The notes beneath the pieces were generated by a model. The model was not told the DNA's origin. It ran no database searches and saw only the letters and a list, made by a program, of their open reading frames with translations. From NCBI RefSeq assembly GCF_054482525.1, contig NZ_CM137006.1: a stretch of 64,000 bases of DNA; one strand, written 5' to 3'. This document shows, one piece after another, positions 1 through 6,832 of this stretch; position 1 is the first letter of the stretch, and each line of letters begins with the position of its first letter. The position numbers and the translations under genes were made by a program.

Positions 1-268
1 CAATACTCAGAAAATTTTCCGCTGGGTGGAGAAAGACACCCCTGATGCGGTTAAAAAAATTCAGGCGTTGTTACCAGCTATCGAAAAAGCAATGCCACCT
101 CTGCTGGTGGCCCGAATGCGCAGTCATAGCTCAGCCTATTTTCGGGAACTAGTGGAGACGCGGGAACGACTGGTGAGAGACGCTGATGATTTTGTCGCAG
201 TGGCGATCGCTGGTTTCAACCAGATGAATCGTGGTGGCCCTGCAGGAAATATTGTGGCTGTGCATTGA
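1..268 (+). CDS. hypothetical prophage early-region protein; the frame is open to the window start, so the 5' end may lie upstream
   Basis: ORF with a GTG at 26 and no upstream in-frame stop within the window; no recognisable family. Confidence 0.3.
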   Translation, partial: NTQKIFRWVEKDTPDAVKKIQALLPAIEKAMPPLLVARMRSHSSAYFRELVETRERLVRDADDFVAVAIAGFNQMNRGGPAGNIVAVH

Positions 269-339: not shown

Positions 340-1410
340 ATGGCTAACGCCTGGCTCAGATTATGGCATGACATGCCAAATGACCCTAAGTGGCGAACAA
401 TTGCCAGGGTGTCAGGGCAGCCAATTGCAACAGTGATGGCAGTGTATATCCACCTCCTGGTGAGCGCGTCACGAAATGTCACGCGAGGTCACATTGATGT
501 CACGACAGAAGATTTGGCAAGTGCGCTCGACGTGACAGAAGAGGTAATTGATTCAATTTTGCAGACGATGCAGGGGCGGGTACTTGATGGTGATTTAATC
601 ACTGGATGGGAAAAACGCCAGGTGCTTAAAGAGGACAACGGCAATATTTCGCAAACCGCAAAATCTCCTGCAGAGCGCAAGAGGGCGCAGCGAGAGAGGG
701 AAAGAAAGCGGGAACAAAATGGCGATTGTCACGGCGCGTCACGAAATGTCACGCACATGTCACGACGAGTCACGACAGATAAAGATACAGATAAAGATAC
801 AGATCAAGAAGATCAAAACACTATGGTCCATGGCGTAAAAAACGCCACGAACCAGGCAGGGGATGTTCAGACCGTCAATCCTGGTCAGCCAGCAGGCACG
901 ACACCGGAAGCCGATTCAGCGTATGCGCTGAAAGCCGATTCGGGCGCTGTGCAGCAGGTGATGACCGCAAGGCCGGAGCAATCACACCAACTGCAGCAGC
1001 CTGAAGCCGATTCCGCCATTCAGCGGGAAGCCGATCGGGTAGTCCCGGAAAGCACCGGGCAGTCTGTGGGACGAGTGGATTATCCGGATGTGTTCGAACA
1101 GGTCTGGCGGGAGTACCCGTTGCGTGCTGGGGCAAACCCGAAGAAATCCGCTTTCAGTGCTTGGAAGGCCAGATTACGCGAGGGGGTGCCACCAGAGGCC
1201 ATGCTGGATGGCGTGAGGCGTTACGCAAGATACTTGGCGGCTACCGGGAAAACGGGAACGGAATTTGTTCAGCGAGCGACGACGTTTTTTGGACCGGATC
1301 GGAATTTTGAGAACCCCTGGTTGCTCCCGGTAAGCGGCACGAACAACCAGCGTTGTGTGAATCATATTTCTGAACCGGATAACGAAATTCCGCCGGGCTT
1401 CAGGGGGTAA
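340..1410 (+). CDS. phage replication initiation / replisome-organizer protein with a DnaT-like C-terminal tail and origin iterons inside the gene
   Basis: SD AAGAGG 7 nt before the ATG at 340. The C-terminus (...HISEPDNEIPPGFRG) matches the C-terminus of primosomal protein DnaT (...VSEPDSQIPPGFRG). Two clusters of GTCACG repeats lie in the coding sequence. It sits where the O gene would be, upstream of the nin region. Confidence 0.65.
   Translation: MANAWLRLWHDMPNDPKWRTIARVSGQPIATVMAVYIHLLVSASRNVTRGHIDVTTEDLASALDVTEEVIDSILQTMQGRVLDGDLITGWEKRQVLKEDNGNISQTAKSPAERKRAQRERERKREQNGDCHGASRNVTHMSRRVTTDKDTDKDTDQEDQNTMVHGVKNATNQAGDVQTVNPGQPAGTTPEADSAYALKADSGAVQQVMTARPEQSHQLQQPEADSAIQREADRVVPESTGQSVGRVDYPDVFEQVWREYPLRAGANPKKSAFSAWKARLREGVPPEAMLDGVRRYARYLAATGKTGTEFVQRATTFFGPDRNFENPWLLPVSGTNNQRCVNHISEPDNEIPPGFRG
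466..504. repeat. iteron cluster 1: 4x GTCACG at 10-11 bp spacing
   Basis: GTCACG at 468, 478, 488 (GTCACA) and 499; one copy per helical turn. Confidence 0.5.
728..825. promoter_or_regulatory. candidate replication origin: 5x GTCACG iterons (728-774) followed by an AT-rich GATAAAGATACA direct repeat (775-825)
   Basis: GTCACG at 728, 738, 748, 759 and 769 (spacing 10,10,11,10), immediately followed by gataaagatacagataaagatacagatcaagaagatc; the lambda ori is likewise iterons plus an AT-rich segment inside O. Confidence 0.5.
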
Positions 1411-1450: not shown

Positions 1451-1876
1451 GTGGCAAAAGTTTTTACACAAGAAGAGCGGGAAAAAATTAAAGGGCAGGT
1501 TGTTGAACTTGTACGTCTGAGCGGTCGCGAGACGTTGCGGCAACTGGAAGCCAGGACAGGTGCGACAAGATATCTGATGAGTGTTCTCGCCAGAGAGCTG
1601 GTTGCCAGTGGCGATGTATACAACTCTGGTTACGGGTTATTCCCGTCTGAACAGGCGCGTAAGGACTGGCAAAATGCTCGCAAAAAACTCTCAAGGGCAA
1701 AGGTGAAGAAACCTGCAGTGGTTGATCCGGACCTTATCTGGTCGTTACCAGACGGCGAAATACGCCGCTACGACAGGCGCCTGAATATAATCTGTCGCGA
1801 GTGCCGGAAGAGCGAAGCTATGCAGCGTGTACTGGCATTTTATCAAGGAAATGTTAGGTATTTTAGACGTTACTAG
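1451..1876 (+). CDS. hypothetical protein with an N-terminal winged-helix-like segment (replication-module accessory?)
   Basis: SD caggaggg upstream; the TLRQLEARTGATRYLMSVLARELVASG segment resembles a wHTH; no helicase-loader (P/DnaC-like) gene follows. Confidence 0.45.
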   Translation: MAKVFTQEEREKIKGQVVELVRLSGRETLRQLEARTGATRYLMSVLARELVASGDVYNSGYGLFPSEQARKDWQNARKKLSRAKVKKPAVVDPDLIWSLPDGEIRRYDRRLNIICRECRKSEAMQRVLAFYQGNVRYFRRY

Positions 1877-2029: not shown

Positions 2030-2716
2030 ATGACCCCAATAAAAATATTTATGACTATTGCTGATTTCAAACGGCCTAAATTGGAGCTCCCAAACGGGGC
2101 AAACAAACTACTACTGCACTCTTGCTGTGCTCCATGTTCCGGTGAAGTGATGGAGGCGCTTCAGGCCTCGGGAATCGACTACACCATCTTTTTCTACAAC
2201 CCGAACATTCATCCTCAGAAAGAGTATTTAATTCGTAAGGATGAAAATATTCGCTTTGCTGAACAACACGGCGTGCCGTTTATCGATGCTGATTACGACA
2301 CCGACAACTGGTTTGAACGTGCCAAAGGAATGGAATGGGAGCCTGAGAGGGGGATCCGTTGTACCATGTGTTTTGACATGCGTTTTGAGCGGACAGCGTT
2401 GTACGCTGCTGAAAATGGTTTCAGTGTGATCAGCAGTTCACTGGGCATTTCACGCTGGAAAAATATGCAGCAGGTTAACGAGTGTGGGCGGCGAGCTGTT
2501 GCGCATTATCCGGGTATGGTGTACTGGGATTATAACTGGCGCAAGCAGGGCGGCTCGTCCCGTATGATTGAAATCAGCAAGCGCGAAAAATTCTATCAGC
2601 AGGAATATTGTGGCTGTGTGTATTCTCTGCGCGATACCAATCTACACCGCAAATCTCAGGGACGCCCTCTTATCAAAATTGGCCAACTCCACTACGGAAA
2701 AGAAGAGAAGGAGTGA
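2030..2716 (+). CDS. queH: epoxyqueuosine reductase QueH (DUF208 family, cobalamin-independent)
   Basis: N-terminal [14 protein letters not shown]...[23 protein letters not shown]...[10 protein letters not shown], plus the CTMCF and CGCVYSL cysteine motifs typical of QueH/DUF208; preceded by a 150-bp non-coding stretch with promoter-like hexamers. Confidence 0.8.
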
Positions 2717-2952
2717 TTTTATGGATCACCTTTCTGATTGATTTTATATTGGCGAGGTAACGGGAGTTAAGTAGAATGGCTGCGGGTGCTTGAGGCTATC
2801 TGTCTCAGGCATGAACACCAAAGGCAGATAGAGAAAAGCCCCAGTTAACATTACGCGTCCTGCAAGACGCTTAACATTAATCTGAGGCTCAATCTATGAA
2901 CGGCAAATCTAGGTTAGCCTCTTACGTGCCGAAAGGCAAGGAGAAGCAGGCT

Positions 2953-3108
2953 ATGAAGCAGCAAAAGGCGATGTTAATCGCCCTGATCGTCATCTGTTTA
3001 ACCGTCATTGTGACGGCACTGGTAACGAGGAAAGACCTCTGCGAGGTACGAATCCGAACCGGCCAGACGGAGGTCGCTGTCTTCACAGCTTACGAACCTG
3101 AGGAGTAA
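2953..3108 (+). CDS. hok: Hok/Gef family type I toxin
   Basis: MKQQKAMLIALIVICLTVIVTALVTRKDLCEVRIRTGQTEVAVFTAYEPEE is near-identical in pattern to Gef/HokC. Strong SD AAGGAG 9 nt upstream. An in-frame upstream start at 2896 is mok-like. An inverted repeat at 2796-2846 lies in the leader. Confidence 0.8.
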   Translation: MKQQKAMLIALIVICLTVIVTALVTRKDLCEVRIRTGQTEVAVFTAYEPEE

Positions 3109-6522: not shown

Positions 6523-6598
6523 GGCCCTTTAGCTCAGTGGTGAGAGCGAGCGACTCATAATCGCCAGGTCGCTGGTTCAAATCCAGCAAGGGCCACCA
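6523..6598 (+). tRNA. ileZ: tRNA-Ile (anticodon CAU, lysidine type; ileX/ileZ-like)
   Basis: 76 nt ending in CCA; near-identical to E. coli ileX; anticodon loop cuCAUaa. Confidence 0.85.
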
Positions 6599-6599
6599 G

Positions 6600-6676
6600 C
6601 CGCCACTAGCTCATCAGGAAAGAGCGTCAACCCTTTAAGTTGAGTGTGCGAGGTTCGAGTCCCCGGTGGCGGTCCA
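6600..6676 (+). tRNA. tRNA, probable Lys (anticodon UUU), with unusual C33 and C1:G72
   Basis: 77-nt cloverleaf; D stem gctc/gagc, anticodon stem tcaac/gttga, loop ccTTTaa, T loop ttcgagt, encoded CCA; one mismatch in the T stem. Confidence 0.55.
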
Positions 6677-6678
6677 GT

Positions 6679-6754
<76 letters not shown>

Positions 6755-6757
6755 TAT

Positions 6758-6832
<75 letters not shown>

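What the first reader, a model, noticed from the sequence alone, without database searches (positions are those of the whole stretch)
340..1410. Replication gene with two in-gene iteron clusters and a DnaT-like C-terminal tail
Inside the coding sequence, GTCACG recurs at 10-11 bp spacing, four times at 466-504 and five times at 728-774, so one copy per helical turn on one DNA face. The second cluster is followed by AT-rich GATAAAGATACA direct repeats (775-825). This is the classic iteron plus DNA-unwinding-element layout of an origin embedded in its initiator gene, as lambda ori sits in O, but with unrelated repeats. The same repeats are translated as SRNVTRGHIDVTT and SRNVTHMSRRVTT. The protein ends with ...ISEPDNEIPPGFRG, nearly the same as the C-terminus of host primosomal protein DnaT. 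No P/DnaC-like loader gene follows. The initiator may instead recruit the host primosome or DnaC through the DnaT-like tail.
Basis: partly seen in the sequence, partly recalled or inferred. Interest (0 to 1): 0.5.

Follow-up and report, generated by a model that had tools for sequence, protein, structure and literature searches.

The report
Phage origin inside its initiator gene
This prophage gene encodes the phage's replication starter protein and very probably contains the phage's replication origin, and the protein ends in the same short tail as the host restart protein DnaT, which seems to let the phage use the host's helicase loader DnaC instead of carrying its own.

Summary
Window 340-1410 (+) encodes a 356-aa phage replication initiator at the lambda-O position of a Qin/Rac-like E. 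coli prophage.

**Origin.** The gene holds two arrays of GTCACG at 10-11 bp phasing:
- 468, 478, 499, a degenerate copy at 488, and an inverted copy at 531;
- 728, 738, 748, 759, 769, followed by an A-rich tract at 775-825.

The copies fall in all three reading frames. Relatives from E. coli to Pseudomonas-type phages keep both arrays, the phasing and the A/purine-rich tract, while the C-terminal half is swapped. Synonymous sites inside the hexamers are 93% conserved, against 44% elsewhere in the domain. More distant clades carry variant cores (GTAACG, GTGACG, CGAACG) at the same place. This is the signature of a co-evolving initiator-iteron origin of the lambda ori-in-O kind. Origin activity itself is inferred.

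**Tail.** Similarity to DnaT is limited to the last ~25 residues (…SEPDNEIPPGFRG). The tail type tracks the downstream loader:
- PPGFRG goes with a DnaC-family gene or with no loader gene;
- an EALDCxDWxDD tail goes with a lambda-P-like gene.

No loader gene is in the window or in the plaque-forming phage Tritos.

**Verdict.** This is a new member of a known kind, of moderate interest.

The parts
340..1410 (+). Gene for the 356-aa replication initiator (ATG 340, stop 1408-1410). It occupies the lambda-O position, after the cI, cro and YdaT/cII-like genes.
   Evidence: ORF. Full-length match to phrog_3729 'replication initiation protein', E 2e-257. NCBI names the 99%-identical cluster 'phage replisome organizer'. 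Gene order taken from the PGAP annotation of a 99.7%-identical locus.
340..717 (+). N-terminal domain, presumed to bind the iterons. It comprises a helical, winged-helix-like fold (aa 1-90) and a basic helix (aa 110-126).
   Evidence: AF2 pLDDT is 70-90 over aa 1-90, and H110-126 is predicted helical. There are weak end-to-end matches to Phage_rep_org_N (PF09681, E 0.13) and TIGR01714 (E 0.016). This domain is the only protein part that always travels with the arrays.
468..504 (+). Iteron array 1: GTCACG at 468, 478 and 499, plus degenerate GTCACA at 488. It encodes a surface loop (aa 43-55).
   Evidence: Positions. The loop has pLDDT <50 and is prone to insertions and deletions in relatives, where the extra residues (VT, CH, SR) correspond to extra iterons. 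Synonymous sites are 93% conserved against 44% elsewhere, Mann-Whitney p = 7.5e-7.
531..536 (-). Single inverted GTCACG copy (CGTGAC on the + strand) just after array 1.
   Evidence: Position. It is retained at the same place in most relatives (rev 191; codon view).
728..774 (+). Iteron array 2: five GTCACG copies at 728, 738, 748, 759 and 769, one per helical turn. It lies in the coding region for the disordered linker.
   Evidence: Positions. Linker from AF2. The array is kept, with 3-9 copies, in all 23 diverse relatives although the encoded peptides differ. Across 445 iterons the spacing is 10 bp (238 times), 11 bp (52) or 21 bp (25).
775..825 (+). A-rich tract directly after the last iteron (ACAGATAAAGAT x3, then CAAGAAGATCAAAACAC). 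It is the presumed DNA-unwinding element and helicase entry site.
   Evidence: Repeats. GC is 0.33-0.37 with AT skew up to 0.63. The 50 nt after the last iteron are 72% A+T against 46% for the gene. All 23 relatives show the same enrichment, mean +0.19, and the tract is polypurine in GC-rich hosts.
1072..1335 (+). Folded helical C-terminal domain (aa 245-332). It is shared with many enterobacterial phage initiators that have other N-domains.
1336..1407 (+). Flexible C-terminal tail (aa 333-356) ending SEPDNEIPPGFRG. This is the motif shared with host DnaT and Rac YdaU, and it is the presumed docking motif for DnaC or the DnaB-DnaC complex.
   Evidence: Similarity to DnaT. YdaU ends ...VSLPDSAIPPGFRG and is followed by the DnaC-like gene ydaV. 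The tail type covaries with the loader type.
1451..1876 (+). Context: the downstream gene, DUF977/LygF ('Ren-like exclusion protein'). It is not a helicase loader.
   Evidence: PF06163, E 8e-28, and phrog_142.
26..268 (+). Context: the 3' part of the upstream YdaT/cII-like regulator gene, cut by the window start.
   Evidence: phrog_163 'CII-like transcriptional activator', E 2e-13. PGAP calls it 'toxin YdaT family protein' in the matching genome.

Best explanation
Window 340-1410 is the single-gene replication module of a lambdoid (Qin/Rac-like) E. coli prophage. It encodes an O-type initiator, and the phage origin lies inside its own coding sequence.

Proposed mechanism, with each step marked as shown or inferred:

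1. Rightward early transcription from the cro side expresses the gene. (Inferred from gene order.)
2. The N-terminal helical domain binds the GTCACG iterons. Five copies, one per helical turn, lie at 728-774. A second set of 3-4 copies plus one inverted copy lies 260 bp upstream at 468-536. Together they would form an O-some-like nucleoprotein complex. (Co-inheritance and co-evolution of domain and iterons are shown. Binding is inferred.)
3. The adjoining A-rich tract at 775-825 melts. (Its composition and conservation are shown. Melting is inferred.)
4. The flexible C-terminal tail ...SEPDNEIPPGFRG, the motif also found at the end of host DnaT, brings in a DnaC-family loader carrying DnaB. 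This phage has no loader gene, so the loader would be host DnaC. (Covariation of tail type with loader type is shown. Physical contact is inferred.)

The protein is modular: an N-domain with its cognate iterons, a disordered linker that is the origin, a small helical C-domain, and a tail. Recombination swaps these modules between phages.
For: **Position and identity of the gene.**

**The arrays are real and non-random.**

**The constraint acts on the DNA, independently of the protein.**
- The copies lie in three reading frames.
- Array 2 is conserved although the encoded peptides differ.
- Synonymous sites in array 1 are 93% conserved against 44% elsewhere.

**The arrays travel with the N-domain, not with the C-terminus or with the neighbouring genes.**
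- In 91 of 120 array-selected loci the array lies inside an N-domain homologue.
- Pseudomonas phage phi1 shows the same arrangement.
- Of 70 protein-selected distant homologues, 56 have at least 3 phased hexamers at nt ~310-415. The cores vary by clade (GTCACG, GTAACG, GTGACG, GAAACG, GCAACG, CGAACG), and the same purine tract follows.

**Geometry.** Phasing is 10/11 bp across 445 iterons. AF2 gives a folded N-domain, a disordered linker (aa 127-244) that holds array 2 and the A-rich tract, a folded C-domain and a floppy tail.

**Tail and loader.**
- The tail equals the DnaT tail.
- The arrangements dnaT-dnaC, ydaU-ydaV and 75/02 Stx 'primosomal protein I'-DnaC all place a PPGFRG tail directly upstream of a DnaC-family gene.
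- A 100%-identical N-domain occurs both with and without a DnaC-like gene 6 nt downstream (L049, L090 and L123 against about 30 versions without).
- That DnaC-like protein is 48% identical to E. coli DnaC.
- Counts are 70/71 against 0/72.
- Proteins with the same N- and C-domains but an LDCxEWQ tail are followed by PF06992 P-like genes.

**One gene is sufficient.** Phage Tritos has a 98.6%-identical initiator, no loader or helicase gene in 46 kb, and forms plaques on MG1655 hsdR-.
Against: - There is no experimental evidence here for initiator-iteron binding, for melting of the A-rich tract or for origin activity.
- The N-domain scores below the curated thresholds of every named family, and Foldseek finds no significant fold match.
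- The function of array 1 is unclear. Lambda has only one array, so array 1 could be regulatory.
- The loader covariation samples are dominated by closely related enterobacterial prophages, so the counts are not independent events.
- No direct DnaT-DnaC contact has been reported (PMC11087952).
- The 2026 preprimosome structure shows the DnaT C-domain on PriA and proposes that the DnaT N-domain recruits DnaB/DnaC (PMC13377028). The tail's partner could therefore be something other than DnaC.
- MG1655, the plating host of Tritos, carries the Rac gene ydaV, a DnaC paralogue. It is presumably repressed, but this was not excluded.
Confidence: 0.8

Rival explanations
1. The arrays are genuine binding sites for the initiator but are not the origin. 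They would serve autoregulation, copy-number control by handcuffing, or exclusion of related phages, and replication would start elsewhere.
For: - There are two separated arrays (468-536 and 728-774). Iteron plasmids use second arrays for control. (General knowledge.)
- Array 1 lies inside the coding region of a folded domain, far from the A-rich tract.
Against: - In every relative, array 2 directly abuts a conserved A/purine-rich tract, which is the standard iteron-plus-unwinding-element layout.
- No other iteron-like cluster exists in the 64 kb. The next most clustered hexamer reaches only 3 copies.
- The location in the linker of the O-position gene matches the known lambdoid origins.
Confidence: 0.1
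2. The origin reading is right, but the PPGFRG tail docks on the restart primosome (PriA and/or PriB) rather than on DnaC. Helicase loading would then run PriA-PriB-DnaT-DnaB/DnaC, as for phage Mu or phiX174.
For: - The motif comes from DnaT, whose C-terminal domain sits on PriA in the preprimosome structure (PMC13377028).
- No direct DnaT-DnaC contact is documented (PMC11087952).
- The role of DnaT residues 154-179 is undefined beyond a modest effect on ssDNA-binding cooperativity (PMC4132743).
Against: - The tail type tracks the type of the adjacent loader gene, DnaC-family against P-family, even when the N-domain and folded C-domain are held constant. A PriA-binding role does not predict this.
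- Phage initiators with this tail lack DnaT's N-domain, linker and ssDNA-binding domain.
Confidence: 0.2
3. The hexamer repeats are by-products of a repetitive peptide or of replication slippage and have no cis-acting function.
For: The arrays are translated, and the linker is low-complexity (DKDTDKDTD).
Against: - The copies lie in all three frames.
- Synonymous sites are selectively frozen.
- Peptide sequences diverge while the DNA core and the 10/11-bp phasing persist across genera.
- Clade-specific core variants keep the same layout.
Confidence: 0.02
4. The module is a decayed remnant. A loader gene was lost, and the prophage can no longer replicate on its own.
For: - Some otherwise identical initiators are followed by a DnaC-like gene (L049, L090, L123).
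- Many E. coli prophages are cryptic.
Against: - The loader-less arrangement is the commonest form, with about 30 unique versions.
- The gene is intact in 1645 of 5426 complete E. coli genomes.
- Phage Tritos has this arrangement, makes virions and forms plaques.
Confidence: 0.03

Closest known systems
Bacteriophage lambda O protein and ori-lambda (and the ori-in-initiator arrangement of other lambdoid phages)
   Same: - The gene sits at the same map position, after cro and cII.
- The origin lies inside the initiator gene, in the region coding for the interdomain linker.
- There is an array of direct repeats, one per helical turn, followed by an A+T-rich tract with strand asymmetry.
- The N-terminal half specifies the DNA site, and the C-terminal end specifies the helicase-loading partner.
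- Origin specificity co-evolves with the N-domain.
   Different: - There is no detectable sequence homology to lambda O; no Phage_rep_O hit appears.
- The iteron core is a 6-7 bp GTCACG(a/c) with variable spacers, not a 19-bp inverted-repeat iteron.
- There are two arrays instead of one.
- No P gene follows.
- The partner-specifying element appears to be a short terminal tail rather than the folded C-domain.
Phage replisome organizers (PF09681/TIGR01714 N-terminal family, for example lactococcal phage Rep proteins and SPP1 G38P)
   Same: - NCBI names the 99%-identical cluster 'phage replisome organizer'.
- There is an end-to-end, though sub-threshold, match to the N-terminal model.
- From my own knowledge of that family, its members also carry origin repeats within their own gene.
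   Different: - The scores are below the curated cut-offs (12.8 against 23.3 bits; 15.4 against 49.8 bits).
- The hosts are different.
- The C-terminal part is different (no Rep_Org_C hit).
Rac prophage YdaU-YdaV of E. coli K-12 and Stx phage 75/02 'primosomal protein I'-DnaC
   Same: - The C-terminal tail is the same (YdaU ...VSLPDSAIPPGFRG; 75/02 ...ISEPDTEIPPGFRG).
- The 75/02 protein shares the folded C-domain, 65% identity over aa 158-356.
- The neighbourhood is the same: YdaT-like regulator upstream, DUF977 downstream.
   Different: - Those initiators have other N-domains (DUF1376 in YdaU) and no GTCACG arrays.
- Each is followed by its own DnaC-family loader gene. Here that gene is absent.
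Host primosomal protein DnaT (with dnaC in the dnaT-dnaC operon)
   Same: The last ~25 residues match, 60% identity, ending IPPGFRG. Both lie upstream of, or work with, a DnaC-family loader.
   Different: - The protein here has no DnaT N-domain, no acidic PriB-binding linker and no PF17948 three-helix ssDNA-binding domain.
- DnaT is targeted by PriA/PriB to fork structures, not to a DNA sequence.
DopC/DopE (Brezellec et al. 2017, PMC5509034)
   Same: It is a chimera of an O-type N-terminus with a DnaT-derived C-terminal element, paired with a loader. This shows that O-DnaT mosaics were already noticed.
   Different: - DopC is a domesticated chromosomal gene without detectable iterons.
- Its DnaT-like part is the PDB 2ru8-type domain.
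- Its partner is P-like. This matches the PF17948 sister alleles seen here, not the window protein.

Membership tests
Lambda-type origin embedded in the initiator gene (architecture) | An array of at least 3-4 direct repeats spaced one helical turn apart | tested here: met
   There are five exact copies at 10, 10, 11, 10 bp, plus a second array. Simulations never exceed 2 copies per 50 nt. Across 445 iterons in relatives the spacing is 10/11 bp.
Lambda-type origin embedded in the initiator gene (architecture) | An A+T-rich, strand-asymmetric tract directly next to the repeats | tested here: met
   GC is 0.33-0.37 and AT skew is up to 0.63 at 761-840. The tract is conserved in 23 of 23 relatives.
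Lambda-type origin embedded in the initiator gene (architecture) | The repeats lie in the initiator's own gene, in the linker between the DNA-binding part and the partner-binding part | tested here: met
   In the AF2 model aa 127-244 are disordered. Array 2 corresponds to aa 130-146 and the A-rich tract to aa 146-162.
Lambda-type origin embedded in the initiator gene (architecture) | The initiator binds the repeats and the fragment supports replication | not testable with these tools
   Only comparative support is available: co-inheritance and co-variation of the N-domain and the iteron core.
Lambda O protein family (Pfam Phage_rep_O) | Sequence match to the family model | tested here: not met
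   The Pfam scan at E <= 1 lists no Phage_rep_O hit.
Phage replisome organizer, N-terminal region (PF09681 / TIGR01714) | Score at or above the curated cut-off | tested here: not met
   PF09681 scores 12.8 bits against a cut-off of 23.3. TIGR01714 scores 15.4 against 49.8. Both alignments nevertheless span the whole model, aa 5-122 to model positions 1-118 of 121. A distant relationship is plausible, but membership is not established.
DnaT (NCBIfam NF002770 equivalog; Pfam PF17948 DnaT ssDNA-binding domain) | Full-length equivalog score, and presence of the three-helix ssDNA-binding domain | tested here: not met
DnaT (NCBIfam NF002770 equivalog; Pfam PF17948 DnaT ssDNA-binding domain) | C-terminal tail motif S-x-P-D-x-x-I-P-P-G-F-R-G at the very end of the protein | tested here: met
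   BLASTP gives 60% identity over 25 aa, E 1e-7. The PDB DnaT chains 6aep, 2ru8 and 9zbt match the tail only.
DnaD-like C-terminal domain (label of phrog_1701) | Sequence and fold similarity to DnaD-type helical domains | tested here: inconclusive
PHROG 3729 'replication initiation protein' | Full-length profile match | tested here: met
   E 2.3e-257, aa 1-356 aligned to model positions 1-356 of 356.

The most novel reading that the evidence does not exclude
The C-terminal motif (S/Q)xPDxxIPxGF(R/K)G would be a portable docking peptide for DnaC-family loaders, or for the DnaB-DnaC complex. It is shared by host DnaT, Rac YdaU and many enterobacterial phage initiators.

If so:
- DnaT would recruit DnaB-DnaC to the restart primosome through its last ~15 residues, rather than, or as well as, through its N-domain as proposed in 2026.
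- The dnaT-dnaC operon would be the descendant of a phage initiator-loader module.
- Loader-less phages such as this one would simply plug into host DnaC by mimicking DnaT.
Probability: 0.4. Interest if true: 0.7.

Novelty: new member of a known kind. Interest (0 to 1): 0.5.

Why it matters
**How common it is.** The gene is in roughly a third of complete E. coli genomes: 1645 of 5426 at 80% coverage or more. It is also in plaque-forming phages such as Tritos. Yet RefSeq often calls it 'hypothetical protein', and I found no paper describing its origin.

**What the origin assignment gives:**
- a defined cis element and specificity determinant for a very common prophage replicon;
- a way to predict replication incompatibility and exclusion between co-resident prophages from their iteron core;
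- a large natural series of initiator-iteron pairs (GTCACG, GTAACG, GTGACG, CGAACG and others) for studying how DNA recognition co-evolves.

**What the tail result gives.** How the PriA-PriB-DnaT preprimosome hands over to DnaB-DnaC is explicitly described as unknown in recent work (PMC11087952, PMC13377028). The covariation of the PPGFRG tail with DnaC-type loaders gives a concrete, cheap hypothesis to test on DnaT itself.

Tried and rejected
- **Foldseek of the full-length AF2 model against the PDB.** Nothing reached E <= 0.001. Only weak winged-helix repressors (MepR, PagR, ArsR) appeared, so I do not claim a fold assignment for the N-domain.
- **Profile search of the C-domain against PDB sequences.** Only the tail matches DnaT. 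The other hit is a designed repeat protein, which I take as spurious.
- **Pfam and NCBIfam.** No family reaches its cut-off.
- **DnaA boxes.** Only three scattered one-mismatch sites lie in 1-2000, and none is at the arrays. I do not propose a DnaA-dependent origin.
- **Window-wide enrichment of GTCACG.** There is none, 31 observed against 28 expected. The signal is purely local clustering.
- **'Eru' non-lambdoid replication types of Stx phages (PMC8044961).** These are different proteins: an SF2 helicase with Toprim, and DnaB-type helicases. They are not this module.
- **Literature searches for GTCACG iterons.** Only unrelated hits came back.
- **Constant helical phase between the two arrays.** I considered this and dropped it. 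The distances are 240-320 bp and depend on copy number.
- **Treating the 70/71 against 0/72 counts as independent statistics.** I did not, because the loci are close relatives. The argument rests instead on the domain-swap cases.
Full report
**What is there**

Window 340-1410 (+) is an intact 356-aa ORF with an SD-like GAGGTG ahead of ATG 340. It matches phrog_3729 'replication initiation protein' end to end, E 2e-257. Its 99%-identical protein cluster is named 'phage replisome organizer' by NCBI. In a 99.7%-identical E. coli locus the PGAP gene order is int, exonuclease, dicB ... cI-like, cro-like, YdaT-family, this gene, DUF977 ... hokD, DUF968, RusA, Q, tRNAs, lysis and HK97-type head genes. 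That is a Qin/Rac-like lambdoid prophage with this gene at the lambda-O position.

DNA at least 80% covering the gene is present in 1645 of 5426 complete E. coli genomes. It is also in deposited phages (Tritos, Evi, vB_EcoS-689R5 and others), where it is annotated variously as 'DNA replication protein O', 'Primosomal protein I' or 'N-terminal phage replisome organiser'.

**Check of the observation**

- GTCACG starts on the + strand at 468, 478 and 499, with a degenerate GTCACA at 488 and one inverted copy at 531. It also starts at 728, 738, 748, 759 and 769.
- The hexamer is not enriched window-wide, 31 against 28 expected. However, five same-strand copies within 50 nt never occurred in 300 dinucleotide-preserving simulations, where the maximum was 2. 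It is the most clustered hexamer of the whole 64 kb.
- The copies occupy all three reading frames.
- ACAGATAAAGAT is repeated three times at 775-810. GC drops to 0.33-0.37 there, with strong A-skew.
- The last 25 residues align with E. coli DnaT 155-179 at 60% identity, E 1e-7. NCBIfam DnaT and three PDB DnaT chains match that tail only.

The one correction is that the first array has three exact copies plus one degenerate copy.

**Are the repeats a cis element or a coding accident?**

Four independent comparisons all point to a cis element.

1. *Array-selected loci.* A scan of IMG/VR for GTCACG-N4-GTCACG-N4-GTCACG returned 120 loci. In 91 of them the array lies inside a homologue of this protein's N-terminal domain (27-100% identity, contig GC 0.43-0.65), and only 41 share the C-terminal half. 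The two-array layout, at nt ~128-160 and ~385-450 of the gene, persists down to about 60% identity. Pseudomonas phage phi1 is an example. Its unannotated ORF has a 69.5%-identical N-domain, arrays at the same two places, an A-rich tract, an unrelated C-terminus, and a Toprim-DnaB primase-helicase as the next gene.

2. *Synonymous sites.* Among 14 diverged homologues, synonymous third positions that fall inside array-1 hexamers are identical to the window in 93% of cases. For the other 69 codons of the domain with the same amino acid the figure is 44% (per-codon Mann-Whitney p = 7.5e-7).

3. *Array 2.* It is kept as DNA, with 3-9 copies, although the encoded peptides differ. In all 23 diverse relatives it is followed at once by ACAGA(T/G)A.AGA..., an A/purine-rich tract that averages 0.19 more A+T than the gene. 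Across 445 iterons in 58 unique gene versions, successive copies are 10 bp (238 times), 11 bp (52) or 21 bp (25) apart.

4. *Protein-selected loci.* I then selected relatives by protein alone, using a distant branch of the N-domain family. Of 70 unique loci, 56 have at least 3 phased hexamers at nt ~310-415 of the gene. About half use GTCACG. Other clades use GTAACG, GTGACG, GAAACG, GCAACG or CGAACG (the common part is ACGC), again followed by the purine tract.

Domain and site are therefore inherited together, and the core changes clade by clade. That is the expected behaviour of an initiator and its iterons.

**Anatomy of the protein**

AF2 with a 32-sequence alignment gives the following:
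- a helical N-domain, aa 1-90, pLDDT 70-90;
- a basic helix, aa 110-126;
- a disordered stretch, aa 127-244;
- a confident small helical C-domain, aa 245-332;
- a low-confidence tail, aa 333-356.

Array 2 and the A-rich tract (aa 130-162) lie in the disordered linker. Array 1 (aa 43-55) encodes a low-confidence loop. In relatives this loop carries insertions made of VT, CH and SR units, which are extra iterons.

Sister alleles with an 85-90%-identical N-domain and the same iterons do carry a true DnaT ssDNA-binding domain (PF17948) instead of this C-domain.

**The loader question**

The next gene (1451-1876) is DUF977/LygF, labelled 'Ren-like'. tblastn with DnaC-like, YdaV, lambda-P-like, DnaB-like and primase-helicase queries finds nothing in the window. 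It also finds nothing in the complete 46-kb genome of phage Tritos, whose initiator is 98.6% identical. Tritos makes virions and was propagated from a plaque on MG1655 hsdR- (PMC9928086). One phage gene is therefore enough.

The C-terminal tail predicts which loader follows:
- Versions with a PPGFRG-type tail are followed either by LygF (about 30 unique versions) or, 2-6 nt downstream, by an IstB/DnaC-family gene (L049, L090, L123, L053, L040). That gene's product is 48% identical to E. coli DnaC.
- Versions ending ...EALDCxDWxDD are always followed by a 153-aa lambda-P-like gene.
- Serratia and Yersinia proteins have the same N-domain and the same folded C-domain as the window protein, but an LDCxEWQ-type tail. 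They are followed by PF06992 P-like genes. This is the critical case.
- The PPGFRG tail sits on three different C-domains, each next to a DnaC-family gene: this one, the DUF1376-type of Rac YdaU (followed by YdaV), and host DnaT (followed by DnaC).
- In loci selected by the loader, 70 of 71 YdaV/DnaC-like genes have an upstream ORF ending [IVL]PxGF[RK]G, against 0 of 72 for the P-like loader. These loci are close relatives, so the counts illustrate the pattern rather than test it. The domain-swap cases carry the argument.

**Most likely mechanism**

The N-domain binds the phased GTCACG sites. The adjoining A-rich tract opens. The tail brings in DnaB through a DnaC-family loader, which here would be host DnaC. 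Binding, melting and the tail-DnaC contact are all inferred.

The main alternative for the last step is that the tail docks on PriA/PriB. In the 2026 preprimosome structure the DnaT C-domain sits on PriA, and the authors suggest that the DnaT N-domain recruits DnaB/DnaC (PMC13377028). [quoted passage not shown] The role of DnaT 154-179 is undefined (PMC4132743).

**Relation to what is known**

Architecturally this is lambda O/ori-lambda again, but without sequence homology to O, with a short 6-7 bp core, two arrays and no P gene. O-N-terminus/DnaT-C-terminus mosaics were noted before (DopC, PMC5509034). Annotation pipelines already label some of these proteins 'Primosomal protein I'. I found no description of the GTCACG origin or of the tail-loader rule in the searchable literature. 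That is absence of evidence only.

**Verdict**

- Novelty: a new member of a known kind, namely an origin embedded in the initiator gene.
- There is a more novel, still unproven corollary about the DnaT tail as a DnaC-docking motif.
- Interest: 0.5.

Noticed in passing
window 2030-2716 (+): A QueH epoxyqueuosine reductase gene (PF02677, E 1e-65) sits in the early-right region of the prophage, between the replication module and hokD. The otherwise matching prophage of strain AMSCJX02 has other small genes at this place, so it looks like a moron or cargo gene.
   Followed up: partly
window 2896-3108 (+): A Hok/Gef-family toxin ORF (PF01848, E 3e-23), equivalent to hokD of related prophages. HokD is the most highly expressed Tritos gene in LF82 lysogens according to PMC9928086.
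   Followed up: partly
window 6523-6832 (+): Four clustered tRNA genes lie directly after the Q antiterminator gene: Met/Ile2-type CAT, Lys-TTT, Thr-TGT and Gly-TCC. PGAP calls the first one tRNA-Ile in the matching genome.
   Followed up: no
IMG/VR loci L108, L082, L035 etc.; proteins P0068, P0100: Sister alleles have the same N-domain and GTCACG iterons but a genuine DnaT ssDNA-binding domain (PF17948) as C-domain, an ...EALDCxDWxDD tail and a truncated 153-aa lambda-P-like partner. The DnaT three-helix domain and the DnaT tail are therefore separate modules that circulate independently among phage initiators.
   Followed up: partly
L097 (IMG/VR), gene nt 409-498: One relative carries nine phased GTCACG copies in array 2 and six in array 1. 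Iteron copy number is therefore highly variable within the family, 3 to 9 in array 2.
   Followed up: no
L005 3001-3897 (Pseudomonas phage phi1, KT887557): The homologous initiator ORF, with both iteron arrays, is not annotated in the GenBank record. The following 609-aa gene, annotated 'replication protein P', is in fact a Toprim plus DnaB-like primase-helicase by Pfam.
   Followed up: partly
E. coli K-12 Rac prophage, L128 3620-5230: YdaU, annotated only as 'DUF1376 domain-containing protein', ends in a DnaT-like tail nearly identical to that of DnaT (RQVNTVSLPDSAIPPGFRG against RDVNTVSEPDSQIPPGFRG). It precedes the DnaC paralogue YdaV, mirroring the dnaT-dnaC operon.
   Followed up: partly
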